Positions 7,867 to 30,569 of a DNA stretch of 64,000 bases are shown in pieces. Both the position numbers and the translations under genes were made by a program. Origin of the DNA: Opitutales bacterium (GTDB taxonomy: Bacteria; Verrucomicrobiota; Verrucomicrobiia; Opitutales; JABSRG01); contig JANQKZ010000006.1 of NCBI GenBank assembly GCA_028280845.1, forward strand, positions 135,512-199,511, written 5' to 3'. The first letter of the stretch is position 1. Each line of letters opens with the position of its first letter. The notes beneath the pieces are model-generated. The model saw only the letters and a program-made list of their open reading frames with translations, had not been told where the DNA came from and searched no databases.

Positions 7867-9183
7867 GTGAGACCCATTGACGACGAGGACATTCGAGAGG
7901 GCTTGGCAGAATTGAGGATGCTATCCCCGAGTTTGCCAGGACAGTTTTTTTCGAAACAACCCTACGAACCCCCCTGGGATCAACGATCCTTCCTCGTTCC
8001 TCTCGCCAGATTCCGCAAGGCTCTCAACATTCAAAGCCTGGAACGGGAAGCCCTTTTAAAGGATATCCGGTTCCTCCACCGTCTCCTAGCCCAATGCTAC
8101 CCGGGTTATGAACTCGGGTTGTCGGCAGGGATGAACTGGGATGGTTCCTTCGAAAACTGGAGGGATCAGGTGAGTCGAGGACCTGCTTCCATCCCTTTGA
8201 ACCTGGGATTTAAGGGATTCCAGGATATCCTGAAGCGTTGGCCTGATGTCCACACCGGCCCCCTGACGGACCAGCTTCTATCTTCCCTTAAAGCTGTGAC
8301 CCGGCTCGAACAACCCCTGGACGGACCCCACCGGGTCGCCCCCTTGTTTGACCCAAGGGAAGCTCACTTACAGCAGACCCCTTTTTATGTAGAATCCGGG
8401 GTAGCGGATCGCTTATCTTCCCCATCGGATTCGACCACTCTACCCACCTACCAGGAGCTAGGCGGCTCGTTACTCTATCTTGGTTTTCCCCGCTTTGAAC
8501 GGAACTCCCCCGCATGGTTAACCGCAAACTTATCGAAAGGCTTGGGACTCCCGAGGATCAAAGGATTAATCTTGGACTTCAGGGGAAACCTGGGCGGTGA
8601 TCTAATATTGGCTCTCAATTCCCTGAAACCCCTTTTTCCCGGATTAAATCTGTGGACAGCCTTTCGGGGACTCATCGAGATTTCCGATGCGGAGCCCTGC
8701 CATATTTCCCTCCGTCTGGGTCAGACCCTCAGCCAGGTGGCCAAGCTATCGCCTCCCTATCCCTTGGACCTTCGCGGTGGATTTGAAAACCAGGTCCTTC
8801 GCTGGAAGCAGCCCCACGTGAAACCCACCCGTCCCAGCACTTCTCAAGCCCATGTGGACGGAGCAGAGTTTCCAATTCTCGTTCTGGCCGATGGAGCAAC
8901 ATCGAGCGATGCGGAACTGTTGGTCTACGGATTCCAAAAAGTCCTCGGCGCGGTGGTGGCGGGTGAAGTCACGGCCGGGGCTATTCGGTTGATTCAGCCC
9001 GGAGCCCTCGTGTTACCCCATACCGGGGTATTGTTCCGCTTAGCCACCGCTGTGTCATACTCCATCCCCTGCTGGGGAACTGGTGTGGGCACTGGGATCG
9101 TTCCGGACATCCTGGCGCCGGAGCTAAAGACACCACAACAAGTCGAGCATCTATTCCGGCTTGCCACCGGAGACAATCCCTAG
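7867..9183 (+). CDS. S41-family (tail-specific / C-terminal processing) peptidase-like protein
   Basis: GLILDFRGNLGGD and ILVLADGATSSDAELLV match the S41 core motifs (xDLRxNxGG; Ser-containing segment). GTG start at 7867; the alternative ATG at 7918 is in frame. Confidence 0.6.
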   Translation: MRPIDDEDIREGLAELRMLSPSLPGQFFSKQPYEPPWDQRSFLVPLARFRKALNIQSLEREALLKDIRFLHRLLAQCYPGYELGLSAGMNWDGSFENWRDQVSRGPASIPLNLGFKGFQDILKRWPDVHTGPLTDQLLSSLKAVTRLEQPLDGPHRVAPLFDPREAHLQQTPFYVESGVADRLSSPSDSTTLPTYQELGGSLLYLGFPRFERNSPAWLTANLSKGLGLPRIKGLILDFRGNLGGDLILALNSLKPLFPGLNLWTAFRGLIEISDAEPCHISLRLGQTLSQVAKLSPPYPLDLRGGFENQVLRWKQPHVKPTRPSTSQAHVDGAEFPILVLADGATSSDAELLVYGFQKVLGAVVAGEVTAGAIRLIQPGALVLPHTGVLFRLATAVSYSIPCWGTGVGTGIVPDILAPELKTPQQVEHLFRLATGDNP

Positions 9184-9194
9184 AGAAAGAGTCT

Positions 9195-9701
9195 ATGCTT
9201 TCTGTTGCAGTCTGCGGTTTGCTCGGCCTTTGGTTCATGGTTTCCTGTTTAAAGCAAACCGCGCTTCCATGGGCATCTCCCCGTTTTCATACATTCAATG
9301 TGTTCGGCTTGTTGCCCAACTGGTCTCTCTTTTCGTCCAATTTTGCCGCTTATAACTACGAGCTCTGTGTACGGTATATTTCAACGGATGGACAATCCGG
9401 CAATTGGATCCCCCTCCCCTCGGGTAGCTCCCGTATTCAAGTTCCGCCGATCTGGAACCCCGAGAGAAGAATAGGAAAAGCCTATTTGGATCTCGCCCTC
9501 AAATTAATTCAACTACGATTACTGAAGAGGGATCACATCCAGTCCAGCCTCCCCTACCTCATCTGCCTGAACATGGCCTCGGCAGCCCCTTCCCCCGCAA
9601 ATGGAAAATCGCTTGAGTTTGGTTTCTTTTTACAGGAAGGCCATAACCGGGGCACCCGGAAGTTGTTCTTTTTATCATCCCGTCACCCGGTGAACCCATG
9701 A
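9195..9701 (+). CDS. Hypothetical protein, possible SdpA-family partner of the downstream HTTM-like protein
   Basis: 168 aa with an N-terminal hydrophobic segment and an LPNWSLFSS...YEL stretch reminiscent of the W-x-F-F/S motif of SdpA-family proteins. The stop overlaps the next start (ATGA). Homology is asserted from memory only. Confidence 0.3.
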   Translation: MLSVAVCGLLGLWFMVSCLKQTALPWASPRFHTFNVFGLLPNWSLFSSNFAAYNYELCVRYISTDGQSGNWIPLPSGSSRIQVPPIWNPERRIGKAYLDLALKLIQLRLLKRDHIQSSLPYLICLNMASAAPSPANGKSLEFGFFLQEGHNRGTRKLFFLSSRHPVNP

Positions 9702-10474
9702 CCGCATTGGATGCATTGGCCTGGGGGCAGACCATTCTGGTCATGGGAATCGTGCTAAGCTCCCTGGAATACCTCGCCCTTAAGCGCTGGTTTGGCGCGG
9801 GAAAGATTTTCAGAGCGATGGCCCCCTCCGGCACGGGAGTGAACAGCTTCTATGCGCTTGCTTTGGTCATGGCGACGCGCGCCCTGGCAGCTGGCCTGCT
9901 CTGCTTTACCCCGATGGATCATATGTTGCGTTCAGGGATCCTCCTCTTCCTGGTTGTAATGACACTCTGGCTTTTCCACCGTATTCCCTTTGGCCAGGAA
10001 GGCGGAGACCAGTTGACCTTGATGGCCCTGGTCCTGCTCTTCATCCAATCCCTGGATTCTCAAAACCTGATGGTCGCTCAGGCCTGCTGTCTGTTTTGGT
10101 CCGGGCAACTGGTACTGGCGTACCTCAAAACGGGCTGGATTAAATTTGCATACTCGGGATGGCGAGATGGGACGTTGTTGCAGTTACTGGGATCCAGCGA
10201 ATTGTACGGGCATCCTTTCTTACACAAAATGGTACAAACCCAAAAAGGGCAAAAAGGGGCGAGAGCTGTCCTTCTTTTTATTGAATGGGGACTTCCGCTG
10301 AGCCTGTTACTTCCCCCAAGTGTATTTTATGTCTTTTTTACACTGGCCCTGCTATTTCATTTCGCCAACGCCGTGTTCCTCGGGTTGGGCGGATTTTTCT
10401 GGGCGATGGCCGCCGTCTTTCCTTCCCTGATTGTGACGCACGGCCTTATTCAGAGGGTCCTCCAGTCGCATTAA
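9698..10474 (+). CDS. Polytopic membrane protein, HTTM/SdpB-like
   Basis: 258 aa with about 6-7 TM helices. The GQEGGDQLTLMALVLLF, QLVLAYLKTGWIKFAYSGWRDGTLL and LALLFHFANAVFLGLG segments fit the HTTM (vitamin-K carboxylase-related, SdpB-type) pattern as I recall it. Confidence 0.4.
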   Translation: MTALDALAWGQTILVMGIVLSSLEYLALKRWFGAGKIFRAMAPSGTGVNSFYALALVMATRALAAGLLCFTPMDHMLRSGILLFLVVMTLWLFHRIPFGQEGGDQLTLMALVLLFIQSLDSQNLMVAQACCLFWSGQLVLAYLKTGWIKFAYSGWRDGTLLQLLGSSELYGHPFLHKMVQTQKGQKGARAVLLFIEWGLPLSLLLPPSVFYVFFTLALLFHFANAVFLGLGGFFWAMAAVFPSLIVTHGLIQRVLQSH

Positions 10475-10478
10475 TCCG

Positions 10479-11396
10479 ATGAAGGAATACTCCGTCAACG
10501 CTGGCCCAAGGGTCCATATCCAGGAATTAGATTCCGGGACCCATGCCGCGTTTAGCCGAATGACGTTTCCCCGGTATCGTTCAAAGGTGACGGAAGTCTG
10601 TCCCACTCATCATCTTCGACTCGCCGCTTTTTCCCGGGATAAACCGATCGGGCTCTTGTTAGGTGAAATAAAAGCCCTATCCCGGGAAATGGAAATTCTG
10701 TCTCTCTTCGTCATTCAGGGAGAGCGGAGGAAGGGAGTCGCCACCGCTTTACTGCAAGAGGCAGAGCGGATTTTAGTCAGGAATAAGGTCAAATCCATGG
10801 CCCTGGTGTTTATGGAAAAGACACAAACCCCACATCCCTTACGCCCCCTCCTGGCCAGTCAGCAATGGAACTCACCGGAAATCCGTATGGTGAGCTGCTT
10901 TTCACCTAAAACCCTCCTGTCCAGGGGCCCCTGGGTGAAGCCATACGTCAACCTGAGTCCGAGGCTAGTGTTGAAAGCCTGGGTAGATTTAACCGCCGAG
11001 GAGCGCAAGTCGGTTTACCGCGAGGATGCTCCAGAAGTGCTCAAGCCAAACCCGAAAGATCGGACCCTGGAACCCGTTTCCAGTATCGTCGTCTTTGAGG
11101 GAAAGCTTCCGATTGGGTGGATGATCAATCACGAGATTGACTCCGACCGAATCCGCTTCTCCCATCTATGGGTAAGATCTGGTATCTCCCCACGACAGTT
11201 GAACGGGATCGCCCTGGTCGGACATTCGATTCATCGTTGGGCGGAATCCCCCGCCTGCCAGGCATTAGTTTTTGCCTCCATGAACTTTCAAGCCCACAAC
11301 CGACCTATGTGGAATTTTTTGACCCGGCACTTAAAACCATATCTAGATGATATTCGCTTCTCCTTTGGGGCTCGCAAAGAACTAACCGAACGATGA
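10479..11396 (+). CDS. GNAT-family acetyltransferase, two-lobed (paralog of 16501..17409)
   Basis: Acetyl-CoA-binding-type segment ILSLFVIQGERRKGVATALLQEAERIL, plus a second C-terminal lobe. The stop overlaps the lanM start (ATGA). Confidence 0.7.
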   Translation: MKEYSVNAGPRVHIQELDSGTHAAFSRMTFPRYRSKVTEVCPTHHLRLAAFSRDKPIGLLLGEIKALSREMEILSLFVIQGERRKGVATALLQEAERILVRNKVKSMALVFMEKTQTPHPLRPLLASQQWNSPEIRMVSCFSPKTLLSRGPWVKPYVNLSPRLVLKAWVDLTAEERKSVYREDAPEVLKPNPKDRTLEPVSSIVVFEGKLPIGWMINHEIDSDRIRFSHLWVRSGISPRQLNGIALVGHSIHRWAESPACQALVFASMNFQAHNRPMWNFLTRHLKPYLDDIRFSFGARKELTER

Positions 11397-14300
11397 AAAT
11401 CGAATCAGCGGATCTGCAGCAGATTGCCTCCCGGGGGCTATTTCTCCACGAAAGGATCGCCCTGAACGAAGCGTTTTCCTCCGCCTCCGAGGCCGAAAAT
11501 CCATCCTCCGTAGAGCGACGGGTTCAAGCATGGAAAAAAGCCGGAGCTGCAGGCCACGAGGATGCCTTCCACCGCCTCCTGCAAAACGATGAGCTCGACG
11601 ATCCGGATTATACCCTCCTCTTCGAAGAATCCCTTCGCCTCAAACCAGAGGCATTTCCCGACTGGGTAAACCGAGGGGAAGCCCTTCTGGAGTCTTACTC
11701 CAAGACAGCGGAACTGACTTTTGATGAACTGGAGGCGAGCCTGCCTTTTCTCAACTCTGATACCCCGGTCGCCTTTGAACACTTGCTTGGCCCCCTGGTC
11801 TGTTTTTTCGCCCGACAGGTGGAGGCGAAATGTCCTAAGCTCCTGAATTGGGTAAGTCACTCGGCATGGAATGAATATCAGCACACCTTCCTGGTCACCC
11901 TTGCCATGATCGGCTCGGAGACCCTTGGTCAGGAGTTCAGTATATTCCGGGCGGTCCGGAAAACGATGCAGGGAAAGTCACCCGGCCGGCAGCCAGGTTC
12001 GAGGGAAATATATGCCGCATTCGTCGACCATCAAAGGCGAGGTAAATTGGTCAAGACCCTGACCCGGTATCCCCTGCTCCTTCGCTATTGGATAAGCACC
12101 GGGTATCAATTCGTCCGTAACGCAGTCACATTCTTCCACCACCTGGAAACCGATTTTGCCGATATTCGGGACGAATTAAACCAAGGTAAATCCCCAGGCA
12201 AAGTGTCCAAGCTCACTCCTGGTATCTCCGATCGTCACGATGGAGGAAAGACCTCGGTCCGCGTTGAATTCGAGGACGGACTTCGGACCATATACAAAGC
12301 AAAATCCCTGGATACCGAGGTGGGATATCATCGGCTGTTGGATTGGTTGAACCAACAAGGCCTCTCTACTCCCCTGAATGGATATCATGTTATTGATAAA
12401 CAGGGACACGGTTGGGTCGAATTTGTCGATGTTCAGGCCTGCCGGAATAAGGAAGAGGTCAAGACCTACTTCACCCGGGGAGGCATGCTCCTCGCTCTTT
12501 TCTACGCCATCGAGGGCAGTGACCTTCATAATGAAAATCTCATCGCTCACGGAGCGCATCCCGTAATCGTCGACTTGGAAACCATCCTCCAGTCTCGTCC
12601 ACGATCCCTGGAGGAAAGGGGTCCCGGCCAGGCTCTCATTCAGGCAAACCAGTTTTTCTACTGGGATTCCGTTTTCCGGACTGCACTTCTGCCCCGTTGG
12701 GAAATAGGGCCTGAAGGACAGAGCTATGACATAAGTGGCCTGGGCGGAGTTCAGGAACACACCACAAGTTTTGTGCAGAAACAGTGGAAACAGATCAACT
12801 CGGACGACATGCAATTAACCCGGCAAACCTTATCGACATCGCCTAACCAGAATGTCGTCCGTTTGAACGGGACGATTCAACTGCCGTCCGATCATCGGGA
12901 AGAACTGCTTCAGGGGTTTCGGGAGATGTATGCCTTGCTTCTGGAGAAGCGGGAGGAGCTCCTGGCACCTGGTGGCCCCCTGCATAGACTGTCCCGGTGC
13001 CCGGTCCGCTTTATTCAGCGCAATACCCGGATCTATGTGACCCTTTTAAGAAAACTGGCTCTGCCTAAAAATCTAACCTTTGGGCCGGATGCCAGCATTG
13101 TGGTCGAATCCCTTGCCCGACCTTTTTTAAGCCTCGACGCACCACACCCTTACTGGCCCCTCGTGAAAGTCGAACGGGAAAATTGTTTTCACCTTGATAT
13201 TCCGCGGTTCATGGCAAATCCGGATTCAGCCGACTTGGAGATTTCCGCTGAAAAAACGCTGCCCGCCTTTTTTGAAGAGCCGGCCTGGGAGCAGGTTCAG
13301 AAACGGTTCAGGACCCTTTCTGAGGCGGATTGCGACCTTCAACAAGCCTTTATCCGATCTTCTTTTGCCAGTACGCCCAGCCAGTCACTCGAGCCACCCC
13401 CAACGGATATCAATCCAACAGCCTGGGAAAATGTGGATCCCCAGGCCTGGGAGGACGAAGCCCTGGAACTCGCAGAAAAAGCCTGCCATGCTGCCATTCG
13501 TTCCTCAGGAAATGAGGTGTCCTGGTTAACTTTGTCCTATTTTGCGGAGGCGCAACGATGGCAGGTCCAACCCATGGCCGCCCGGCTTTACGACGGGCTA
13601 TGTGGTCCCCTGGTCTTTCTCGCTGCGGCTGAGCGCGTATCCGGCGGCTCCCCGGAGTTTCGAGCCACCCTCGAAGGAACCGTGCGATCCATTTCCAGTT
13701 TTCTTCAGGACGCTTATGCTGCGCGATACCTGTTTGAGGCAGGTACGGGAGCAGGTCTGGGAGCTTCCAGCTTGATTTATGCCCTGGTTGTTGCCGGCGC
13801 CTTACTGGAAGATCGCGATACCCTGAACTTGGCTGAAAAATGCGCCTTCTGGGTCGGAGAGGACCAATGTGAGGCCGACCAGCGCAATGATTTATTGGGC
13901 GGCAATGCCGGGGCCGTCTCAGCCTTCCTGGCCCTCCATTCTGTCCGCTCCTCCGGGACCTGGATGGACCGGGCCCTCGCCTGTGGCGATCTCCTGCTGG
14001 GCCAACGGGTCAAGACGGATTCGGGATACCACACCTGGCTGACCTTGGAGAACAAACCACTCCTGGGCTTTTCCCACGGGGCCGCCGGGATCATCATGGC
14101 TTTGAGCCAGCTGGGTGAACAGTCCGGGGAAAGTCGGTACATCGAGGCGGCAGAAGAGGCCCTCGCCTATGAGAATTCATTCTTTGACGAGGAAAAAGGC
14201 AATTGGCCCGACCTGCGCTATCGACAGACCAAAGACGGGTACCACTTTACAAACCGGTGGTGCCATGGTGCGCCCGGGATTGGCTTGGGACGGCTTTACA

Positions 14301-14650
14301 CGCCCTTGCCGGGCTTGGTCGAACAGGATATCCTCCGTGCCTTGGACTGCACGAAATCGCAACCCCTTACTCCCCTGGATCATTTATGTTGCGGGAATCT
14401 TGGCCGAGCCCAGGCCCTTCAAGTGGGGGGACTCCGCACCGGGGACACAAGCCTGGTCCTATCGGCCCAGAAATTGACCCAACAAGTCTACTCCCGGGCC
14501 AGAAACCAAGGGGGTTACGGTCTGGGGCTCGCGCCCGGGCTGGACATTTTTTCCTTTCACCAGGGCCTCGCCGGGATCGGCTATCATTTCCTCTGGATGA
14601 ACCACCTGAACACCTTACCTTGTATCCTCGCATGGGAAACAACACCGTAA
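11393..14650 (+). CDS. lanM: Class II lanthipeptide synthetase (LanM), ProcM-like CCG type
   Basis: 1085 aa. The N-terminal dehydratase region carries the kinase-like loop DLHNENLIAHGAHPVIVDLETI. The C-terminal LanC-like cyclase has GFSHGAAGI, WCHGAPGIGL and DHLCCGNLG. Confidence 0.93.
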   Translation: MKIESADLQQIASRGLFLHERIALNEAFSSASEAENPSSVERRVQAWKKAGAAGHEDAFHRLLQNDELDDPDYTLLFEESLRLKPEAFPDWVNRGEALLESYSKTAELTFDELEASLPFLNSDTPVAFEHLLGPLVCFFARQVEAKCPKLLNWVSHSAWNEYQHTFLVTLAMIGSETLGQEFSIFRAVRKTMQGKSPGRQPGSREIYAAFVDHQRRGKLVKTLTRYPLLLRYWISTGYQFVRNAVTFFHHLETDFADIRDELNQGKSPGKVSKLTPGISDRHDGGKTSVRVEFEDGLRTIYKAKSLDTEVGYHRLLDWLNQQGLSTPLNGYHVIDKQGHGWVEFVDVQACRNKEEVKTYFTRGGMLLALFYAIEGSDLHNENLIAHGAHPVIVDLETILQSRPRSLEERGPGQALIQANQFFYWDSVFRTALLPRWEIGPEGQSYDISGLGGVQEHTTSFVQKQWKQINSDDMQLTRQTLSTSPNQNVVRLNGTIQLPSDHREELLQGFREMYALLLEKREELLAPGGPLHRLSRCPVRFIQRNTRIYVTLLRKLALPKNLTFGPDASIVVESLARPFLSLDAPHPYWPLVKVERENCFHLDIPRFMANPDSADLEISAEKTLPAFFEEPAWEQVQKRFRTLSEADCDLQQAFIRSSFASTPSQSLEPPPTDINPTAWENVDPQAWEDEALELAEKACHAAIRSSGNEVSWLTLSYFAEAQRWQVQPMAARLYDGLCGPLVFLAAAERVSGGSPEFRATLEGTVRSISSFLQDAYAARYLFEAGTGAGLGASSLIYALVVAGALLEDRDTLNLAEKCAFWVGEDQCEADQRNDLLGGNAGAVSAFLALHSVRSSGTWMDRALACGDLLLGQRVKTDSGYHTWLTLENKPLLGFSHGAAGIIMALSQLGEQSGESRYIEAAEEALAYENSFFDEEKGNWPDLRYRQTKDGYHFTNRWCHGAPGIGLGRLYTPLPGLVEQDILRALDCTKSQPLTPLDHLCCGNLGRAQALQVGGLRTGDTSLVLSAQKLTQQVYSRARNQGGYGLGLAPGLDIFSFHQGLAGIGYHFLWMNHLNTLPCILAWETTP

Positions 14651-15561
14651 CACTCAGTGTCCTGGAATTTGGCTACTTGGGCCCCAATCAGGACGCCCGC
14701 CTGCGCCTACAGGCTGTCGTGGACCACGGCCCCGTCTTCGAAGCCATGGGGTTTCATCGATATTGGTTGGCCGAACATCATGAGGCACACTTCGCCTTCG
14801 CCGTGCCGGAACTTATGATCCCCGCAATTGCGGCGAAAACTTCGACCATTCGTTTGGGAACGGCCGGTGTGCTCATGCAATTCCACAGCCCCCTGAGAAT
14901 CGCAGAATCCTTCCGCATGCTCGAAGCCCTCTACCCCGATCGCATCGACTGTGGTGTCGCCTCCGGGGTTACCGCCCATGTCGAGGTCCGCAAAGATCTT
15001 TATCCCGACTTTGACTTGGATCGCGCTATCCGGGATCGCCAATACACCCAGCACGTGGAGCGCCTCATCACCCTGCTGCGGGATGAAGCCCACTACGACC
15101 ATCGCCATTACCGCAGTGTGAGCCCGGCTCGGCAAGCCAGCCCGGCCATCACGCTCCTGGGCGCTGCCCGAGGCAAGGGAAACCAAATCCTGGCCTCCCG
15201 GCACGGGACCGCCTTTTGCTATTCTCTGGCCCATGGTCCCTCCGAACAAGGCCCGGCCATTTGCCAAAGATATCGAGAAAACTTTCAGGCCAGTAAGACC
15301 CTTCAGGAACCCAAGCTACTCATCGCCGCCACCGTCATATGCGCCGAAACCAACGCAAAAGCAGTCGAGTATTTGAATTACTTAAAAGCGATGAACCAGA
15401 CCGTGGGCACAGTGATTATGGGTAACCCGCGATTGTGCCGGGATAAAATACTCCAGCTTTGTGAACAGTTTCAATGCCATGACTTCGTCATCATCCCCAT
15501 GTATCCCAAGGCCCATCAGGTCACAGAAGGCATGGAACGCCTTATGGAGACATTCTCGTAA
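14632..15561 (+). CDS. LLM-class (luciferase-like, group 1) flavin-dependent oxidoreductase
   Basis: LSVLEFGYLGPN...GFHRYWLAEHHEAHFAFAVPELMIPAIAAKTSTIRLGTAGVLMQFHSPLRIAESFRMLEALYPDRIDCGVASG matches the luciferase-family group 1 pattern. The homology starts at the ATG at 14632, which overlaps the lanM end by 19 nt. The ORF-track start at 14203 is an out-of-frame run-in through lanM. Confidence 0.85.
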   Translation: MGNNTVTLSVLEFGYLGPNQDARLRLQAVVDHGPVFEAMGFHRYWLAEHHEAHFAFAVPELMIPAIAAKTSTIRLGTAGVLMQFHSPLRIAESFRMLEALYPDRIDCGVASGVTAHVEVRKDLYPDFDLDRAIRDRQYTQHVERLITLLRDEAHYDHRHYRSVSPARQASPAITLLGAARGKGNQILASRHGTAFCYSLAHGPSEQGPAICQRYRENFQASKTLQEPKLLIAATVICAETNAKAVEYLNYLKAMNQTVGTVIMGNPRLCRDKILQLCEQFQCHDFVIIPMYPKAHQVTEGMERLMETFS

Positions 15562-15596
15562 AAAAAAGCAGGATCGGAAATCCTGCCTTTTGATTT
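15560..15596. terminator. Bidirectional rho-independent terminator between the LLM gene and the precursor operon
   Basis: The A-run at 15560-15567 is followed by the hairpin gcaggat-cggaa-atcctgc at 15568-15586 and then cttttgattt. Read on the minus strand, the hairpin is followed by T8. Confidence 0.75.
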
Positions 15597-15618: not shown

Positions 15619-15999
15619 CTAGACGCAACCGCCAACCGCGCCCACACCGGGATAACCAATGCTAACGGTTGAGGTCACCGCACAAGAGGCTGCACAGGAT
15701 GCTGCGCACCGCGCGCCCCCTGCTACCTGTTCCAACTCACTATCGGAGAGTTCTTCGTCCTCATCGACAGGCTCATCGAGAATGATATTCACGAGCGCAC
15801 CCTTACCATCGTGAAACTTGACCGAGATCCCATCCGGAACGGGTTTGGCCGATTGCTCCATGATGGCCGCCTGGGGATCGCTCAGGGCTTTTTCTCGAAA
15901 AGCAGCATCGGTACGGGCACGTTCAATGGTGGAACGAAGCAGGTCCTCAATATCACGCGGTTCCCAATTCGGACTAGCCGCACTATCGAAGTCTGACAT
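15619..15999 (-). CDS. NHLP-leader lanthipeptide precursor A1 (core 15622..15714)
   Basis: 126 aa. The leader ...AFREKALSDPQAAIMEQSAKPVPDGISVKFHDGKGALVNIILDEPVDEDEELSDSELEQVAGG fits the nitrile-hydratase-like leader (NHLP) pattern and ends in a double glycine. The core is ARCAASCAASCAVTSTVSIGYPGVGAVGGCV. Confidence 0.88.
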   Translation of the reverse strand: MSDFDSAASPNWEPRDIEDLLRSTIERARTDAAFREKALSDPQAAIMEQSAKPVPDGISVKFHDGKGALVNIILDEPVDEDEELSDSELEQVAGGARCAASCAASCAVTSTVSIGYPGVGAVGGCV

Positions 16000-16001
16000 G
16001 A

Positions 16002-16334
16002 CTAGAATCCTTGACTGACGACACAGCTAGCGGCGCAACTGCCTCCGCAACGATTTCCGTCTCCGACACCCCCTGCTACTTGCTCCAATTCGCTGTCACT
16101 CAATTCTTCGGCGACAGGATCAGGCAGGACAAAGGTAAAGGTAGCTCCAGCGTTATCCACGAAGCGGATAGAAACACCTTCCGGAATGGGTTTATCCGTG
16201 AATTTTGCGATGGCCGCATGGGGATCTGACATTGCGAGTTCGCGTAATTCGGGATCAGTGCTTGATTTTGCTAGAAGTTCGGAAGCAACTTCGTTAATTG
16301 AATCTTCGGTCCAGGGTCCGGGATCGATGGCCAT
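16002..16334 (-). CDS. NHLP-leader lanthipeptide precursor A2 (core 16005..16067)
   Basis: 110 aa. The leader is ...ELRELAMSDPHAAIAKFTDKPIPEGVSIRFVDNAGATFTFVLPDPVAEELSDSELEQVAGG and the core is VGDGNRCGGSCAASCVVSQGF. Its stop lies 2 nt upstream of the A1 start, and an AAGGA Shine-Dalgarno for A1 sits inside its last codons. Confidence 0.88.
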   Translation of the reverse strand: MAIDPGPWTEDSINEVASELLAKSSTDPELRELAMSDPHAAIAKFTDKPIPEGVSIRFVDNAGATFTFVLPDPVAEELSDSELEQVAGGVGDGNRCGGSCAASCVVSQGF

Positions 16335-16500
16335 AAGGTATCCTTACTAGAGGTTAATTCGTGGTGTTTAAGAATTGAGATAGCGACAGAATGGATTTTC
16401 TGTAGCTGGAAGTGTTAGGGCATCTTTGCCTGTGTAAAGGTTGAATTTAACCTACTATGCCCTATTAGCCCCCCTGTTGAGTTTTCATGGTTTATTTACA

Positions 16501-17409
16501 ATGCCTAATATAGGGTCTATCCCCGATCCCCGCCTGGTGGACTTGGAAGACCTGCGGGCCCTTCGATATCGCTCCTTCACCTTTCCGACTCATGCCAATC
16601 TGCTCTCCCAGACAGAGAGACCGGAAGTCGTGGCTATCGGGTTGGAACGGGCAGGACGACCCATCGGCCTGGGACTCGGGATGCGGGGAAACAGTGAAGC
16701 CTATTCCGGTGACATCCTGTCGCTGGCCGTGGCTGCCGAATATCGAACCCAAGGCTACGGCAGTGCGCTCCTCAATCGTTTGGAGTGCCGCCTTCAGCAA
16801 AAGGGGGCCTGCTTTGCCAGCCTACAGTACATGTCCCACCAGAAGAGCACCCCTTATCTGGAACGCATGCTTCGTTCCGCTGGTTGGGAAGAGCCAGTCC
16901 ATCGGCAATTGTTCTGTGCCTCCACCTACACAAGGATTCTAAAGGCCCCCTGGATGCGCTTCAGAACCCTGCCGGACGGCTTCGAGACCTTTTCCTGGCC
17001 TGCAGGACTTCAAGATTCGGAATGGAAACGACTGACTGGCGAAGGTGGGCGAGCGTCCTGGTTCCCGGAATTGTTAAATCCCTTGCATAGCGTGGAAGAC
17101 ATCGATGGAGAAAATAGCCTGGGATTGCGGTTTCGGGGGGACCTGGTCGGATGGCTGATCGCTTTCCGGATTGCCCCGACGACCGTCCGCTATCAAAAAC
17201 TCTTTATCAAGGATGAATTCCAGAAACAGGGATTGGCGATTCGACTCCTGGCGATGGGGATTTATCCCCTGCCCTCCACTGGGGTCGACTCCGCGGTCTG
17301 GGATGTGATCCCCACTAGCAAGAATATGCTCAATTTTGTTGAGCGGGGTTTGCGACCCTACTGCACAGAATACAAATGGTCGATGGGAGCCATCAAACGG
17401 TTTTCCTGA
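16501..17409 (+). CDS. GNAT-family acetyltransferase, two-lobed (paralog of 10479..11396)
   Basis: ILSLAVAAEYRTQGYGSALLNRLECRL GNAT core. The segment STPYLERMLRSAGWEEP...APWMRFR aligns by eye with TPHPLRPLLASQQWNSP...GPWVKPY of the other GNAT. I prefer the ATG at 16501; the ORF track opens at a TTG at 16441. Confidence 0.7.
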   Translation: MPNIGSIPDPRLVDLEDLRALRYRSFTFPTHANLLSQTERPEVVAIGLERAGRPIGLGLGMRGNSEAYSGDILSLAVAAEYRTQGYGSALLNRLECRLQQKGACFASLQYMSHQKSTPYLERMLRSAGWEEPVHRQLFCASTYTRILKAPWMRFRTLPDGFETFSWPAGLQDSEWKRLTGEGGRASWFPELLNPLHSVEDIDGENSLGLRFRGDLVGWLIAFRIAPTTVRYQKLFIKDEFQKQGLAIRLLAMGIYPLPSTGVDSAVWDVIPTSKNMLNFVERGLRPYCTEYKWSMGAIKRFS

Positions 17410-17425
17410 TTTCCCCACATAGTCC

Positions 17426-18355
17426 ATGGATCCGATACCTCTCATAATCCTGGAAGAGCACCACGAGGCATTTTATACCCTGGTCGCAGCCAAAAAGAAG
17501 GGGTGGCTGGGGGATCAGCCGTACGCCCTCCTTCATGTCGATGAACATTCAGACATGTCGCTTCCTCGCTTGAGACATCCCCTTCCCCGGAAGCGTGACC
17601 CGATAGAAACCTGGATTCGATTTACCTACAATGAGCTGGATATCGGGAATTTCATTTGGCCCCTGGTCTATTTAGGTCATTTGGACTCGGTCACCTGGTT
17701 TCGCTTCCAACACAAAAAGGCAGTCACACCCCGGCATCTCGAAATATGCACCACGGATGACCGGGGGCTGGAATTTATGACGGCCGGATCTCTGGATCAG
17801 ACCGCTTATCGAAACCGACCCGACCGACGCTCCCTCCGCTATGAAACCCGTTCACCTGGCGAAAGCTACGCACCCGACGGCCCGTGGATCTTAAGTATCG
17901 ACGAGGATTTTATTGCCGCCAACCCCTTTCCAAAGATAGAGGATCGGGTGATCGAAATCACGGAAGCCAGTTACCATGCCTTTCTCCGGGATCCATACCA
18001 TTTTCTCAGGATTTCACCGGGCTCCAAGCCGAGTGTATTTGTAAAAGATAAGCGATATTTCTTAAATTTTAACGATCTTCCTTCCTCCGGAGTAACCGAT
18101 TCCTTACAAGTACTGGATTTATCGCCTCGTTATGAAACCCTCAACACCCTTTTGAAGGGAATTCGCCGGCCTCCTGAGTTGATTATGCTTTGCCGCTCGT
18201 TAAAAAGTGGTTACCTGCCTATAACGCTTTTCCCCTCCATTGAAGCACGCTTGTTGCGAGACCTCAGCCATTGCTATCCCACCCAACTTATTCGGGTACA
18301 CGAAATCATCCCCGACTCTGTGAAAGTCGAATACGCCTTTTACCCCAATGATTGA
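17426..18355 (+). CDS. UPF0489-like protein (arginase/ureohydrolase-related fold suspected)
   Basis: The N-terminus PLIILEEHHEAFYTL...ALLHVDEHSDMSLP resembles UPF0489 (PF12640). The motifs EEHHE, HVDEHSD and LSIDEDFIAANP resemble the ureohydrolase metal-binding signatures (GGDHS, DAHxD, SxDxDxxDP). Confidence 0.5.
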   Translation: MDPIPLIILEEHHEAFYTLVAAKKKGWLGDQPYALLHVDEHSDMSLPRLRHPLPRKRDPIETWIRFTYNELDIGNFIWPLVYLGHLDSVTWFRFQHKKAVTPRHLEICTTDDRGLEFMTAGSLDQTAYRNRPDRRSLRYETRSPGESYAPDGPWILSIDEDFIAANPFPKIEDRVIEITEASYHAFLRDPYHFLRISPGSKPSVFVKDKRYFLNFNDLPSSGVTDSLQVLDLSPRYETLNTLLKGIRRPPELIMLCRSLKSGYLPITLFPSIEARLLRDLSHCYPTQLIRVHEIIPDSVKVEYAFYPND

Positions 18356-19310
18356 AGACCACTCCTCGGGAACCACATCCGCCATCGTGCCTCCCTATCC
18401 CCTACCCTTTGAAGCGATAGAGCGGAGGGACGGTCTGTCTCCTGAAGTTTTCCAGGAACGCTATGAAAGCGGAATGCGCCGCCCGGTCGTGGTGACCGAC
18501 GCCATGCAGGAATGGCCTGCCTGGGGAAAGTGGGGGTTTGATTTTTTCGCGAAACAGTATGGAGAAGAACGCGTCGTCGTCACCAACCGCCTGTCCGGGG
18601 CCACGGCCGCCCGGCGGATAAAGATGGGAGATTTCATTACCTATTGTCAGTTTCCTGCCTTCAGTCCCCTTTCCAAAAACGAGACGGATACCCCCTTTTA
18701 CCTGACCTCATTTTCTCCCTTCGTAGACCACCCCGAGCTCTACGGAGACTTTGAGGATCCCTACTTTCTGAGTAACCTCTACCGGTCTCTCGAGGGTCCC
18801 CTGGGCGATTGGTATAAACAAGGCTTCGGCTGGATTTTTATTGGACCTGCGGGAACCCTCTCCCCTCTCCATCTCGATCTTTTTGGAACCCATGCCTGGC
18901 TGGCCCAATTTCATGGGCGGAAGCGCTTCCTTCTGTTCCCGAAAACAGACTTCCCCTACGTCTACGATGGTCGGCCTGATTTTATTAACCCGGATCTCAA
19001 GGCCTTTCCGGACCTCGCCAAGACCCGACCGGTCCTGGCCATCCTCGAGCCTGGGGAAGTCATTTATATCCCAGAGGGATGGGCTCATCATGTGGTCTCA
19101 TTAGATCCCTCCATATCCCTCACATTTAACTTCGTGGACGCCAGTAATGCCGTCGACCATGTGATGGCCATCACCCGCGACTTGCCAAACTGGGTGAACA
19201 AAACCGGAACTGATTCCTTTAAGCAGGCAAACCGGGTATACTGGACCCAGGCGGAGTTCAGTTTTCCTGGCCAGGATGACAACAATGGGAAGGAAGAAGG
19301 TTCTCACTGA
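18348..19310 (+). CDS. JmjC / cupin_8 Fe(II)/2-oxoglutarate-dependent oxygenase
   Basis: WIFIGPAGTLSPLHLDLFGTHAWLAQFHGRKRFLLFP ... IYIPEGWAHHVVSLDPSISLTFNF gives an HxD...H facial triad on a cupin fold, typical of JmjC-only hydroxylases. The start overlaps the upstream stop by 8 nt. Confidence 0.8.
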   Translation: MIEDHSSGTTSAIVPPYPLPFEAIERRDGLSPEVFQERYESGMRRPVVVTDAMQEWPAWGKWGFDFFAKQYGEERVVVTNRLSGATAARRIKMGDFITYCQFPAFSPLSKNETDTPFYLTSFSPFVDHPELYGDFEDPYFLSNLYRSLEGPLGDWYKQGFGWIFIGPAGTLSPLHLDLFGTHAWLAQFHGRKRFLLFPKTDFPYVYDGRPDFINPDLKAFPDLAKTRPVLAILEPGEVIYIPEGWAHHVVSLDPSISLTFNFVDASNAVDHVMAITRDLPNWVNKTGTDSFKQANRVYWTQAEFSFPGQDDNNGKEEGSH

Positions 19311-19311
19311 T

Positions 19312-20955
19312 ATGCATATAGCCAGGATTCAGCCTGCTCGCTTGCTATCCCGAATCTCACCTTGGATCATCCTTCTGGCGTGGTCCTGTACGGGAGTCGG
19401 CCAAGCGCGGAACGACCCGAATCCCCTGCAGATTGATCGTTCGATCCCGGCTCCGGATGATCTTCCCCAGTCCAGATTGGTCGGGCCCACGGCTCCTCCC
19501 GGGCCGTTGACCCTCGAAGATGTGATCCGAATCAGTCTGGAGTCCAATGTGGAGATCCTCGTTCGCCAAGAGGACGTCATCATCGCGGACGCCCAACTGC
19601 AGCAGGTCTCTTCCGTGTTTAACCCGCAGATTGACGCCACCCTGGATAGCAACGAAACCCGGGTGAACTCCGCGCTCTCGACCGCTCCGGAAGATCTTTT
19701 TATTTCCGAGTCGGAAACGTCCACCTACTCTCTCGCCGTCACCAAAACCTTCCGCAGCGGGATTTCTCTCACCCCCAGCCTGGAATACGATTTATCTGCA
19801 TCCAATACGGACGGATTGGTGCCTTCCAACCGCGGCATCTGGCAACTGAACATCACGGTTCCCTTACTGAAAGGATTCGGCAGAATCGCCACAGCTGGAA
19901 AGGAGCTGGCGGCCCAGAAAAATGTAGAAGCCGTGCAGTTTGCCTATGAGCATACACTGTCCGAGCAACTCTCCCTGGTCGTCGCGGCTTACTGGAGTTA
20001 CCTCTCGGCCGCCCGAAATCTCGATATTCTTCAAAGGGCAGAACAGCGGGGCGAACTGCTCCTCCGACAGACCGAAGCCCTGATCGAGGCAAATCAACTG
20101 CCTGCCGCCGAAATCAGTAAATCCCAGGCCGATTTATCCGCCCGCCGCGCTGACCGCTCCAGGGGAGAACTCAGCCTCTTTTCGGCTAGGCGCAACTTGG
20201 GGCTCCTCATGGGACTATCCAAAGAAACGGTCACTACCCTAACGGAACCCTCCACCCCGTTCACGATTGTCCCCCCGGTAGACCCAACTTCCCTCCTTGA
20301 TCAAAGTGAACGCTACGTCGATTTGGCTCTGCAACAACGCCGGGATTTACAAGCTGCGGCTGGACAGACTAAGGCGACTGAGGTGTTGAGAAAGCAAGCC
20401 GAAGCCCTGGATAAAATCCAGGTCGACTTCACCTTGGGGGTTGGCTATTCGGGCTATTCCCCAGGGCGTTCTTTCAGCGCCAAACCGGAATCCTTTTACC
20501 GGCATCTCGAAGGGCCCAGTTATGAGGCGACCTTCAACATCGGTTGGGGCTGGAATCGCAACCTCGAAAAAGGAACCTTGCGCGAACGGCTCTCCCGGGA
20601 AGCCCAGGCCCGCTATGCGGAAGTCCAGCTGGAACGCGAGATCTACTCCGGGGTGATCCGAGCCTTAGAAAACTTGAGGACCGCTTCCCTCACCCTGGAA
20701 GAATCTAACAAGGCTCAACTGCTTTTCCAGAAATCGCTCGAATTAGAGGCTCAAAAGCTCCAGTTGGGCCAAGCTACCATTATTGATGTCATCAACCTGC
20801 AGGAACGCCTGACCCAGGCGGAACTCGAGTTGACTCAGGCTCAGCTTCAATACGTCAATGCCATCGTCGAGCTTCGTTTTCAAACCGGAACCCTCCTGAA
20901 TCTACAGGAGGATATGTTTCAATTAAACCAGGATGCCCTGACGACCCTCCCCTAG
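19312..20955 (+). CDS. TolC-family outer-membrane efflux protein
   Basis: Signal-like N-terminus, LTLEDVIRISLESNVEILVRQEDV... and two long coiled-coil repeat halves typical of OEP/TolC. The ATG at 19312 lies 1 nt after the JmjC stop; the track start at 19276 overlaps it. Confidence 0.85.
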   Translation: MHIARIQPARLLSRISPWIILLAWSCTGVGQARNDPNPLQIDRSIPAPDDLPQSRLVGPTAPPGPLTLEDVIRISLESNVEILVRQEDVIIADAQLQQVSSVFNPQIDATLDSNETRVNSALSTAPEDLFISESETSTYSLAVTKTFRSGISLTPSLEYDLSASNTDGLVPSNRGIWQLNITVPLLKGFGRIATAGKELAAQKNVEAVQFAYEHTLSEQLSLVVAAYWSYLSAARNLDILQRAEQRGELLLRQTEALIEANQLPAAEISKSQADLSARRADRSRGELSLFSARRNLGLLMGLSKETVTTLTEPSTPFTIVPPVDPTSLLDQSERYVDLALQQRRDLQAAAGQTKATEVLRKQAEALDKIQVDFTLGVGYSGYSPGRSFSAKPESFYRHLEGPSYEATFNIGWGWNRNLEKGTLRERLSREAQARYAEVQLEREIYSGVIRALENLRTASLTLEESNKAQLLFQKSLELEAQKLQLGQATIIDVINLQERLTQAELELTQAQLQYVNAIVELRFQTGTLLNLQEDMFQLNQDALTTLP

Positions 20956-20992
20956 GTCTGATGAAACACACTATGATGAAAGGTTGGCTGAC

Positions 20993-22249: not shown

Positions 22250-22253
22250 GCCC

Positions 22254-24464: not shown

Positions 24465-24467
24465 GCC

Positions 24468-30040: not shown

Positions 30041-30044
30041 GGAC

Positions 30045-30569
30045 TTATTGCTTGGGCTTGGGTTGTTTCGTTTGCGTATAGGCCACGCTCACGTCGACGA
30101 TTAAGGTCCCCCGCAATAAGTTGCGCCCGATCAGCAAGGGAAACTCAAAGTCAGTACGATCAGCCAGATTAAATTCGTAGCGACGGGTCCAGTTGCCCAA
30201 AGTGGCCTCCAACTTGACTACGTAGCGCTTCATGGATTCTTCCCCGCCCCGCCGCCGGATACTCGCAATCCGTTCCACGGGTTTTTCCAGCTCCACGGCT
30301 TTTCCCGACTCCGGTTGAATCAAGGTAAAGGAAACCCAGGTCTCCCCGTCCCGCTCAAACGCTTCGATGTCCAAAGCATGAATGGAACTCGTCGTCGCAC
30401 CTGTATCAATACGGGCATTATATCGAGCCCCGGCTTCGGAAATATAAAAATACTCCGCCTCTCCAATCACCAGTCGCTCTACCTCCGCAGGGTCCTCTTT
30501 AGATCGCAGATCGACCGGAGGGGTCAGTATACATAGACAAAGTAAAGCAACAAAGAATCGGAGTCTCAT
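30045..30569 (-). CDS. Retropepsin-like 'ATP-dependent zinc protease' family protein (PF05618-like), secreted
   Basis: Signal peptide, then ARIDTGATTSSIHA (D-T-G-A aspartic-protease-like motif) and LLIGRNLL near the C-terminus. It is the usual first gene of the RimK-like triad. Confidence 0.7.
   Translation of the reverse strand: MRLRFFVALLCLCILTPPVDLRSKEDPAEVERLVIGEAEYFYISEAGARYNARIDTGATTSSIHALDIEAFERDGETWVSFTLIQPESGKAVELEKPVERIASIRRRGGEESMKRYVVKLEATLGNWTRRYEFNLADRTDFEFPLLIGRNLLRGTLIVDVSVAYTQTKQPKPKQ

What the first reader, a model, noticed from the sequence alone, without database searches (positions are those of the whole stretch)
14632..15561. Luciferase-like flavin oxidoreductase overlapping the lanM stop: possible D-amino-acid-forming reductase or thioether S-oxygenase
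Seen in sequence: a group-1 LLM protein (GFHRYWLAEHH..., 310 aa) starts 19 nt before the lanM stop, so the two are probably co-translated. Core A1 has two more Ser/Thr than Cys, so uncyclised Dha/Dhb should remain. Established knowledge: flavin- or F420-dependent reductases (LanJB/LanJC types such as CrnJ, BsjJB and LxmJ) reduce Dha/Dhb to D-Ala/D-Abu. A luciferase-like monooxygenase (GarO) oxidises a lanthionine to the sulfoxide in actagardine. Inference: this enzyme does one of these two jobs on the NHLP lanthipeptides. Neither has, to my knowledge, been shown for prochlorosin-type systems.
Basis: partly seen in the sequence, partly recalled or inferred. Interest (0 to 1): 0.6.

Follow-up and report, generated by a model that had tools for sequence, protein, structure and literature searches.

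The report
Lanthipeptide-linked luciferase-like flavoenzyme, function untested
A flavin enzyme gene fused to the end of a lanthipeptide synthetase gene belongs to a small, uncharacterised enzyme lineage that is found next to lanthipeptide machinery wherever examined, so it very likely modifies the peptide, probably by oxygenating it, but the exact reaction has not been shown.

Summary
An ATG at 14632 opens a 309-aa ORF (not 310) that overlaps the lanM stop by 19 nt. It encodes a group-1 (TIGR03558/MsnO8-family) luciferase-like flavoprotein, and the AF2 model has pLDDT 94.9.

It is not a primary-metabolism enzyme. All ten homologue contexts examined at 33% identity or more lie beside a lanthipeptide synthetase (nine LanM, one LanB/LanC). 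They span a wide GC range and the phyla that could be named, and an eleventh, short contig has a C39 exporter. Three of four more distant group-1 loci have no LanM.

This lineage (NJ bootstrap 72/100) lacks a ~30-residue segment that generic group-1 enzymes carry.

- **LanJC reductase:** not a member. Those enzymes are F420/Mer-type, and this protein scores 28.6 bits or less on F420 models.
- **GarO:** a GarO orthologue I recovered belongs to the same subfamily (36% identity) but is not an orthologue (0/100 bootstrap).

The locus is a phaeornamide-like selidamide cluster (arginase, JmjC hydroxylase, two GNATs, LanM). Its cores carry tandem (R/K)CxxSCxxSC rings.

The best guess is an FMNH2/O2 monooxygenase acting on the cyclised peptide, most plausibly by thioether S-oxygenation. 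Dha/Dhb reduction or a new chemistry is not excluded.

The parts
14632..15561 (+). Group-1 (MsnO8-family) luciferase-like flavoprotein, 309 aa. This is the finding.
   Evidence: PF00296 E=1.5e-28; TIGR03558 181.4 bits; AF2 pLDDT 94.9; best structural match MsnO8 (4US5), TM 0.85.
11393..14650 (+). Class II lanthipeptide synthetase LanM, 1085 aa. Its stop overlaps the LLM start by 19 nt. It carries WCHG and HLCCG motifs.
   Evidence: TIGR03897 750.7 bits; DUF4135 plus LANC_like.
10479..11396 (+). GNAT-A acyltransferase, 305 aa. First gene of the GNAT-A/LanM/LLM unit; overlaps the lanM start by 4 nt.
   Evidence: Conserved upstream of LanM in L001, L003 and L005.
15568..15596 (+). Terminator-like hairpin plus T-run, 7 nt after the LLM stop, flanked by an A-run. 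It lies between the converging LLM and precursor genes.
   Evidence: Seven-pair stem, dG -11 kcal/mol, z = -2.55. This is a consensus match, not proof of function.
15619..15999 (-). NHLP-type precursor A1 (126 aa). Core: ARCAASCAASCAVTSTVSIGYPGVGAVGGCV.
   Evidence: leader_NHLP E=8e-13 (48.0 bits, cut-off 50.9).
16002..16334 (-). NHLP-type precursor A2 (110 aa). Core: VGDGNRCGGSCAASCVVSQGF.
16501..17409 (+). GNAT-B acyltransferase. The database start gives 302 aa; the mechanical ORF starts at TTG 16441.
17426..18355 (+). Peptide arginase (FlmR/OhkR/OspR type), predicted to convert Arg to ornithine.
   Evidence: PF12640 47.6 bits; NF052474 164 bits, below its 350-bit cut-off.
18348..19310 (+). 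Cupin_8/JmjC-type Fe(II)/2OG hydroxylase, counterpart of PhaI.
19276..27443 (+). Export module: OEP/TolC (19276-20955), HlyD (20984-22249), C39-peptidase ABC transporter (22254-24464), second ABC transporter (24468-27443).
7867..10474 (+). Conserved accessory module: S41 peptidase (7867-9183), 168-aa protein (9195-9701) and 258-aa protein with weak SdpB/HTTM-like similarity (9698-10474).

Best explanation
The ORF encodes a real, cytoplasmic, FMN-type (group 1/MsnO8-family) luciferase-like flavoenzyme. It is the last gene of a GNAT-A/LanM/LLM transcription unit in a selidamide-type (phaeornamide-like) lipo-lanthipeptide cluster. It belongs to an uncharacterised lineage of short group-1 LLMs that is specifically linked to lanthipeptide synthetases, so its substrate is the LanM-modified, leader-bound precursor. 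Most likely it uses FMNH2 from a housekeeping flavin reductase plus O2 to oxygenate the peptide. The most plausible target is one or more of the three or four tandem lanthionine thioethers, giving a sulfoxide (+16 Da each). That would be GarO-like chemistry reached by a separate lineage. Shown here: gene, fold, subfamily, conserved linkage to lanthipeptide synthetases, and non-membership of the F420/LanJC branch. Inferred: FMN use, monooxygenase activity and the sulfur target. My confidence that it is a dedicated lanthipeptide-tailoring flavoenzyme is about 0.85. The figure given below is for the specific S-oxygenase reading.
For: The enzyme is real and of the FMN type: (TIGR03558 181 bits; MsnO8 E=3.5e-29 by sequence and TM 0.85 by fold; LuxA matches rank above the F420 enzymes). 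Residues invariant across 57 group-1 sequences, including E48/H49 of the WLAEHH motif, are kept. Linkage is dedicated: all ten homologue contexts examined at 33% identity or more have a lanthipeptide synthetase within 10 kb (L001, L003/4, L005, the P0011 contig, L011, L023, L040, L041, L042 and the window itself), and an eleventh short contig (L043) has a C39 exporter. The link survives gene-order changes: the LLM follows LanM, follows a GNAT, or sits between precursor and LanM. GC ranges from 39 to 71%. Members occur in class I and class II clusters with no GNAT or arginase in the DNA retrieved, which points to a lanthipeptide-common target. Three of four more distant group-1 loci lack LanM. 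The two characterised enzymes of this subfamily, MsnO8 and GarO (by its orthologue in L045), are oxygenases. The GarO orthologue scores 329.9 bits on TIGR03558, is 36% identical to the window protein, and has the same precursor-LanM-LLM order. Nearly every core in these clusters offers thioethers: Cys-x-x-Ser/Thr units match the Cys4-Thr7 ring of phaeornamide. O2 chemistry already operates in the pathway through the JmjC hydroxylase.
Against: There is no biochemical evidence. The protein is not a GarO orthologue: the GarO-like sequence ranks 122 of 123 in similarity and groups with the generic LLMs (0/100 bootstrap for lineage plus GarO). The functional analogy therefore rests on subfamily and context only. 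The lineage lacks about 30 residues that GarO and MsnO8-type enzymes keep, so substrate handling and possibly chemistry may differ. No flavin reductase gene lies in the cluster. Every cluster has at least one precursor with spare Ser/Thr, so a reductase role is not excluded. Cofactor specificity of LLMs cannot be read reliably from sequence. The tree is NJ with moderate support (72/100).
Confidence: 0.38

Rival explanations
1. Dehydroamino-acid reductase: a functional analogue of LanJC that reduces leftover Dha/Dhb to D-Ala/D-Abu, using reduced FMN or another hydride source instead of F420H2.
For: LLM-fold enzymes do this in actinobacterial lanthipeptide, lipoavitide and daptide clusters. Core A1 has two spare Ser/Thr, and the long precursor type keeps a conserved VTSTV(S/T) stretch. 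Every LLM-lineage cluster has at least one precursor with spare Ser/Thr.
Against: LxmJ lies in the Type A F420/Mer clade and SprOR is annotated Mer-like. The window protein scores 28.6 bits or less on every F420 NCBIfam model against 181 on TIGR03558, gives no Mer hit in PDB, and F420 enzymes are poorer structural matches. In the review consulted, Verrucomicrobia are not mentioned as F420 producers, cyanobacteria are mentioned only for FO, and F420 genes occur in only some Acidobacteria. Six of 18 cores have no spare Ser/Thr, including A2 and both main L023 peptides. I know of no FMN-type group-1 LLM that acts as a C=C reductase (my own knowledge).
Confidence: 0.2
2. An oxygenase with a chemistry not yet described for lanthipeptides. 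Examples are flavin-peroxide attack on the electron-poor Dha/Dhb double bond (epoxidation or hydroxylation, as MsnO8 does on an enone), C-hydroxylation, or oxidation beyond the sulfoxide.
For: The nearest characterised relative by sequence and fold is the epoxidase MsnO8. The lineage is separate from GarO and has its own ~30-residue deletion. It occurs with unusual cores, such as tandem CxxS units and SCSCSC repeats in L040. L023 carries two paralogues, which hints at more than one site or step.
Against: Nothing points to a particular alternative target. Sulfur is the most easily oxidised site in these peptides (established flavin-hydroperoxide chemistry). The precedents within lanthipeptides are sulfoxidation and reduction only.
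Confidence: 0.25
3. The enzyme acts on the lipid or ornithine part of the selidamide, for example oxidation of the fatty acyl chain or of (hydroxy)ornithine, in partnership with the GNATs.
For: In the selidamide-type sub-clade a GNAT is always nearby, and in L011 and L023 the LLM directly follows a GNAT. Some LLMs (LuxAB, LadA) act on long aliphatic chains (my own knowledge).
Against: Sister members of the lineage sit in lanthipeptide clusters with no GNAT, arginase or hydroxylase in the DNA retrieved (L040, L041, L042). The LLM is present whether or not an arginase or JmjC is (L003, L005, L023). The characterised selidamide clusters make acylated (hydroxy)ornithine without any LLM.
Confidence: 0.07
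4. A housekeeping or primary-metabolism LLM that merely lies next to lanM, or an inactive remnant.
For: Most TIGR03558 members have no known function and are widespread.
Against: Linkage to lanthipeptide synthetases is conserved in all ten contexts examined despite rearrangement and 33-60% identity. The coding overlap, intact active-site residues and a confident fold also argue against it.
Confidence: 0.03

Closest known systems
GarO (actagardine lanthionine S-oxygenase); compared here through its orthologue by synteny in Actinoplanes cyaneus, L045 13478-14500
   Same: Luciferase-like fold and the same NCBIfam subfamily TIGR03558. 36% identity over residues 37-246 (E=5e-36). Encoded directly after a class II LanM, with the precursor nearby.
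   Different: Not orthologous: the GarO-like protein clusters with generic 334-340-aa group-1 LLMs and ranks 122 of 123 in similarity to the window protein. It covers the full TIGR03558 profile, whereas this lineage lacks about 30 residues after residue 251. The host phyla and the peptide type (NHLP, lipidated, tandem small rings) also differ.
MsnO8 (mensacarcin epoxidase, PDB 4US5)
   Same: Closest solved structure by sequence (E=3.5e-29) and by fold (TM 0.85). Namesake of the same subfamily.
   Different: It acts on a polyketide rather than a peptide. It is a full-length enzyme (about 330 residues in the crystal chains). Identity is only 26% over the structural alignment.
LanJC reductases (LxmJ, SprOR, the birimositide enzyme, LpvJ, TfDapJ)
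   Same: LLM (TIM-barrel) fold; encoded in lanthipeptide or RiPP clusters; act after dehydration.
   Different: They are F420H2-dependent Type A/Mer-clade enzymes from Actinobacteria. The window protein shows no significant affinity to that branch.
Selidamide clusters, especially pha (phaeornamide) of Pseudophaeobacter arcticus
   Same: NHLP precursor, LanM, peptide arginase, Fe/2OG (JmjC-type) hydroxylase, GNAT and a C39 exporter. The core motif has Arg directly before a Cys-x-x-Ser/Thr ring.
   Different: No LLM is mentioned in the main text of the ksp/pha/npu papers I could search. Here there are two precursor types, three or four tandem CxxS units, two GNATs, the LLM, and an S41 peptidase plus two small proteins.

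Membership tests
Luciferase-like monooxygenase superfamily (PF00296) | Significant profile match and a (beta/alpha)8 barrel fold | tested here: met
   PF00296 100.6 bits against a cut-off of 27.9. AF2 pLDDT 94.9 with eight strand/helix repeats. Foldseek top hits are all LLMs.
TIGR03558 group-1 / MsnO8-family LLM | Whole-protein score above the curated cut-off | tested here: met
   181.4 bits against 166.95, but only profile positions 1-241 of 325 align in one stretch. This is due to a lineage-wide ~30-residue deletion after residue 251.
LanJC (LLM-type Dha/Dhb reductase) | Belongs to the F420H2-dependent Type A (Mer/LxmJ) LLM clade | tested here: not met
   The best F420 NCBIfam model scores 28.6 bits, and there is no Mer model hit. 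No Mer structure appears among the PDB sequence hits. F420 enzymes reach TM 0.63-0.72 against 0.85 for MsnO8. No LanJC sequence was available for a direct comparison.
LanJC (LLM-type Dha/Dhb reductase) | Host makes F420 | not testable with these tools
   Only 64 kb of the genome is available. In the review consulted, Verrucomicrobia (the phylum of the nearest relative, L006) are not mentioned among F420 producers.
LanJC (LLM-type Dha/Dhb reductase) | Substrates retain uncyclised Dha/Dhb | tested here: inconclusive
   A1 has 2 spare Ser/Thr and A2 has 0. Six of 18 cores in lineage clusters have none, but every cluster has at least one with spare residues.
LanJC (LLM-type Dha/Dhb reductase) | Product shows +2 Da and D-Ala/D-Abu | not testable with these tools
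   Needs co-expression, mass spectrometry and chiral analysis.
LanJA / LanJB reductases | [quoted passage not shown] | tested here: not met
   The only Pfam family matched is PF00296.
GarO-type lanthionine S-oxygenase | Same LLM subfamily as GarO | tested here: met
   The GarO orthologue (L045) scores 329.9 bits on TIGR03558. Pairwise identity is 36%, E=5e-36.
GarO-type lanthionine S-oxygenase | Orthology with GarO (closest relatives of each other) | tested here: not met
   It ranks 122 of 123. The NJ tree groups the GarO-like sequence with generic LLMs. Bootstrap is 0/100 for lineage plus GarO and 72/100 for the lineage alone.
GarO-type lanthionine S-oxygenase | Encoded with a class II LanM and a precursor able to form thioethers | tested here: met
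   A 19-nt overlap with lanM. The cores have three Cys-x-x-Ser/Thr units each.
GarO-type lanthionine S-oxygenase | Product carries +16 Da on a (Me)Lan sulfur | not testable with these tools
   Needs co-expression with MS/NMR.
Selidamide (GNAT-lipidated lanthipeptide) cluster | NHLP or Nif11 precursor + LanM + GNAT (with or without arginase and hydroxylase) | tested here: met
   leader_NHLP E=8e-13 and 4e-12 (48.0 and 45.9 bits, just under the 50.9 cut-off). LanM 750 bits. Two GNATs. PF12640 arginase. Cupin_8/JmjC_2.
Selidamide (GNAT-lipidated lanthipeptide) cluster | GNAT belongs to the KspN/PhaN/NpuN clade | tested here: inconclusive
   The search with GNAT-B gave nine relatives, none from the characterised producers. 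Size (~300 aa) and an N-terminal-only GNAT signature agree with the tandem-GNAT description of NpuN.
Selidamide (GNAT-lipidated lanthipeptide) cluster | Side-chain fatty acylation of Orn/Lys | not testable with these tools
   Needs expression and MS. Indirect support: Arg is replaced by Lys in L023, which shows no arginase within the 20 kb retrieved.
Prochlorosin-type system | Nif11-type leaders, with many diverse precursors served by one ProcM | tested here: not met
   Nif11 matches cover only the last 15 leader residues. There are two precursors of fixed types. The LanM does carry a ProcM-like HLCCG motif (the significance of that motif is from my own knowledge).

The most novel reading that the evidence does not exclude
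The short group-1 LLM lineage may be a new family of lanthipeptide-tailoring enzymes with a reaction not yet described for this class. Examples are flavin-peroxide epoxidation or hydroxylation of Dha/Dhb, or multiple or over-oxidation of tandem thioethers. It would be working in an undescribed family of paired, lipidated lanthipeptides built from three or four consecutive four-residue CxxS rings.
Probability: 0.25. Interest if true: 0.75.

Novelty: new variant of a known kind. Interest (0 to 1): 0.5.

Why it matters
Lanthipeptide tailoring by LLM-fold enzymes is known only from Actinobacteria: GarO sulfoxidation and F420-dependent D-amino-acid formation. This finding identifies a distinct, conserved lineage with a shortened loop region that accompanies class I and class II lanthipeptide synthetases in Verrucomicrobiota, Acidobacteriota and unassigned metagenome contigs with GC from 39 to 71%. 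That makes a simple co-expression experiment worthwhile. The result would either extend sulfoxidation or D-residue formation to lipidated NHLP lanthipeptides, or reveal a new modification. It also flags a widespread, uncharacterised relative of the selidamide lipopeptides with an unusual tandem-ring core. That is relevant to engineering ribosomal lipopeptides.

Tried and rejected
- **Primary-metabolism enzyme:** rejected on conserved synteny.
- **LanJC membership:** rejected on family scores, PDB hits and the published clade assignment.
- **GarO orthology:** tested by recovering a GarO orthologue through the actagardine precursor. The first locus (L044) ended just after garA. The second (L045) gave precursor-LanM-LLM, and orthology was rejected.
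- **Spare Ser/Thr as a discriminator:** uninformative.
- **Genome-contig scan with the LLM alignment:** found only the Opitutaceae relative plus four distant LLMs. The window's own contig could not be looked up, so the organism is not identified directly.
- **Selidamide paper supplement:** not held.
- **GNAT-B homology search:** did not reach KspN, PhaN or NpuN.
- **KvPepI:** this structural hit is a pepstatin ketoreductase and is irrelevant.
- **L009 as a GarO surrogate:** considered and dropped, because it is no closer to the lineage than generic LLMs are.
- **L012:** it may carry the LLM beyond the fetched edge and could not be extended.
- **Mapping the deletion onto LuxA's mobile loop:** could not be tested, because no residue-level structural alignment or model coordinates were available.
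Full report
**Observation.** An ATG at 14632 opens a frame that ends with TAA at 15559-15561, giving 309 residues rather than 310. The lanM frame ends with TAA at 14648-14650, so the overlap is 19 nt. The only other in-frame start listed, TTG 14203, would run about 450 nt inside lanM. Homologues begin at the same position as the ATG, and a database protein has the identical 309-aa sequence (P0001).

The product matches Pfam Bac_luciferase (E=1.5e-28). It scores 181.4 bits on NCBIfam TIGR03558, the 'MsnO8 family/group 1' LLM model, against a cut-off of 166.95. AlphaFold2 on a 57-sequence alignment gives a TIM barrel with mean pLDDT 94.9 and pTM 0.92. A terminator-like hairpin with a T-run lies 7 nt after the stop, so the LLM closes the GNAT-A/LanM/LLM unit. 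Core A2 has 3 and 3.

**The locus.** The neighbourhood is richer than the finding implies. On the + strand lie:

- an S41 peptidase and two small proteins (168 and 258 aa)
- GNAT-A, LanM and the LLM
- GNAT-B, a peptide arginase (PF12640; NCBIfam FlmR/OhkR family) and a Cupin_8/JmjC hydroxylase
- OEP, HlyD, a C39-ABC exporter and a second ABC transporter

Two NHLP-type precursors lie on the - strand. The flanks are housekeeping genes, so the cluster spans about 7.9-27.4 kb.

This is the gene set of the selidamide pathway pha: NHLP precursor, LanM, arginase PhaR, Fe/2OG hydroxylase PhaI and GNAT PhaN. Phaeornamide carries a fatty-acylated gamma-hydroxy-ornithine and a four-residue MeLan ring from Cys4 to Thr7. 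Both cores here contain Arg followed directly by Cys-x-x-Ser, repeated three times. 'Selidamide-type' therefore describes the system better than 'prochlorosin-type'. The LanM does carry an HLCCG motif, which I recall as the ProcM-like zinc site. None of the main texts of the selidamide or nostolysamide papers I could search mentions an LLM.

**Is the LLM part of the pathway?** Among 5.8 billion proteins the query has only a dozen relatives at 38-60% identity. Scores then drop to generic ~334-aa group-1 LLMs at about 33%. Every member whose context I could read sits in a lanthipeptide cluster.

| Locus | Source | Context of the LLM |
|---|---|---|
| L001/L006 | Opitutaceae MAG | Fully syntenic with the window |
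| L003/L004 | Metagenome contig | GNAT-LanM-LLM with S41, the two small proteins, a radical SAM enzyme and two 107-aa precursors |
| L005 | Bryobacteraceae genome | Same arrangement as L003 |
| P0011 contig | JGI metagenome | LanM-LLM with S41, the two small proteins and three small (104-119 aa) candidate precursor genes; no DNA could be retrieved |
| L011 | Logan contig | Rearranged: the LLM follows two GNATs |
| L023 | 39% GC contig | Seven precursors, LanM, two GNATs, two tandem LLM paralogues, no arginase |

The next tier of shorter homologues (33-36% identity) is also lanthipeptide-linked:

- P0014 lies directly after a different LanM (L041).
- P0017 lies in a class I LanB/LanC cluster (L040).
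- P0023 lies between a precursor and a LanM (L042).
- P0016 lies next to a C39 exporter on a short contig.

That makes ten of ten informative contexts, counting the window itself. By contrast, three of four more distant group-1 loci have no LanM (L007, L008, L010). The fourth, L009, does have one. A neighbour-joining tree separates these short proteins from the generic ones. Bootstrap support is 72/100 for the lineage and 89/100 for the selidamide-type sub-clade. This is a rough method and the support is moderate.

The whole lineage lacks about 30 residues that generic group-1 enzymes carry just after window residue 251, between the helix that follows strand 7 and the next strand. From memory, this is the topological position of the mobile active-site loop of luciferase LuxA. 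I could not test that mapping.

**What tracks with the LLM.** A metagenome scan with the precursor alignment recovered 28 loci. Two precursor types recur together:

- a short type, '...N-R-C-G-G-S-C-A-A-S-C-V-x-S...'
- a long type, '...R-C-A-A-S-C-A-A-S-C-A-V-T-S-T-V-S-I-G-x-P-G-V-G...'

Within the selidamide-type sub-clade, every locus whose DNA could be read has cores with the tandem (R/K)-C-x-x-S-C-x-x-(S/T)-C motif. In L023, which shows no arginase in the 20 kb retrieved, Lys replaces Arg. That fits direct acylation of Lys.

The LLM is present with or without the arginase and JmjC. Sister-lineage members occur with no GNAT in view. The common denominator is therefore the lanthipeptide itself, not the lipid or the ornithine.

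**Reductase or oxygenase?**

*Against a LanJC-type reductase:*
- The characterised LLM reductases are actinobacterial and of the F420/Mer type. LxmJ is placed in the Type A clade and SprOR is annotated Mer-like.
- The window protein scores 28.6 bits or less on every F420 model, and no Mer structure is hit. F420 enzymes are poorer structural matches, with TM 0.63-0.72 against 0.85 for MsnO8.
- In the review consulted, Verrucomicrobia are not mentioned among F420 producers, cyanobacteria are mentioned only for FO, and only some Acidobacteria carry the genes.
- Six of 18 cores have no spare Ser/Thr. Every cluster does have one that has, so this criterion does not decide.

*For an oxygenase:*
- To test GarO directly I found GarA homologues, using the actagardine precursor recalled from memory (98% identical hit). 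I then retrieved an Actinoplanes cyaneus locus with precursor-LanM-LLM (L045).
- That LLM is a full-length TIGR03558 member (329.9 bits) and is 36% identical to the window protein.
- The two characterised representatives of the subfamily, MsnO8 and GarO, are both oxygenases. The residues invariant across 57 group-1 sequences are kept here.

*Limits of the GarO analogy:*
- The GarO-like protein is not the closest relative. It ranks 122 of 123 and groups with generic enzymes (0/100 bootstrap with the short lineage).
- The lineage is therefore a separate branch of the same subfamily that is also linked to lanthipeptide clusters.

**Conclusion.** It is well supported (about 0.85) that this is a dedicated, FMN-type lanthipeptide-tailoring flavoenzyme. 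My best mechanistic guess is an FMNH2/O2-dependent oxygenation of the cyclised, leader-bound peptide, most plausibly at lanthionine sulfur (0.38). Dha/Dhb reduction (0.2) or an undescribed oxygenation (0.25) are not excluded. No flavin reductase gene is in the cluster, so reduced flavin would have to come from a housekeeping enzyme. I recall this being the case for GarO in E. coli. The function can only be settled by co-expression and mass spectrometry.

**Novelty and score.** LLM tailoring of lanthipeptides is known, so this is not a new kind of system. The lineage is distinct from both known LLM types and has its own structural signature. It is conserved across class I and class II clusters outside Actinobacteria, and I found no mention of it in the literature I could search. 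I rate it a new variant of a known kind, with interest 0.5.

Noticed in passing
window 15619-16334 (-); L012-L028: The two precursor types recur together in many metagenome contigs: a short 'NRCGGSCAASCVxS..' and a long 'RCAASCAASCAVTSTVSIGxPGVGAVGGCx'. This looks like a widespread paired (possibly two-component) lipo-lanthipeptide family with three or four tandem Cys-x-x-Ser units. I found no description of it.
   Followed up: partly
window 7867-10474: An S41 peptidase, a 168-aa protein with no family hit and a 258-aa protein (weak SdpB/HTTM-like similarity) form a module. It is conserved in L001, L003, L005, L011, L012, L014 and the P0011 contig. Its role is unknown; it may act in leader trimming or export.
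   Followed up: partly
L023 14329-19074: This 39% GC locus has seven precursors with Lys in place of Arg, one LanM, a 242-aa unknown protein, two GNATs and two tandem LLM paralogues. No arginase or JmjC lies in the 20 kb retrieved.
   Followed up: partly
L040 2113-10891: A class I (LanB/LanC) cluster has a core made of Ser-Cys repeats (SASCTCSHNKSCSCYSCSCSCSCGCDNDY). It also encodes a Rieske oxygenase, an Asp/Arg hydroxylase and a lineage LLM.
   Followed up: no
L014 1-10338: Here S41 and the two small proteins are followed directly by four precursors and then GNAT-B, arginase and JmjC. There is no GNAT-A/LanM/LLM between them, so that trio may behave as a movable cassette or lie elsewhere on the genome.
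   Followed up: no
L009 10001-14509: In an Acidimicrobiaceae MAG, a group-1 LLM that also lacks the ~30-residue segment lies tail-to-tail with a 912-aa LanM and next to a cupin. No precursor was identified.
   Followed up: partly
window 11393-14650: The LanM cyclase domain carries WCHG and HLCCG motifs. From memory, the second is the ProcM-like three-cysteine zinc site associated with relaxed substrate specificity.
   Followed up: no
window 16441-16501: The mechanical ORF for GNAT-B starts at TTG 16441 (322 aa). The database protein (P0137) is 302 aa, which implies a start at 16501.
   Followed up: partly
window 27507-30569 (-): Directly downstream of the cluster, on the opposite strand, lie a sugar-transfer-associated ATP-grasp (PF14397), a 7TM protein fused to an inactive transglutaminase (PF14400/PF14402) and a 174-aa ORF. 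I recall this as a recurrent gene set of unknown role.
   Followed up: no
L042 16257-17836: An MbnB/TglH-family protein and a 253-aa partner lie inside a precursor-LLM-LanM-C39 ABC cluster on a 9.3-Mb contig. This suggests further oxidative Cys chemistry on that peptide.
   Followed up: no
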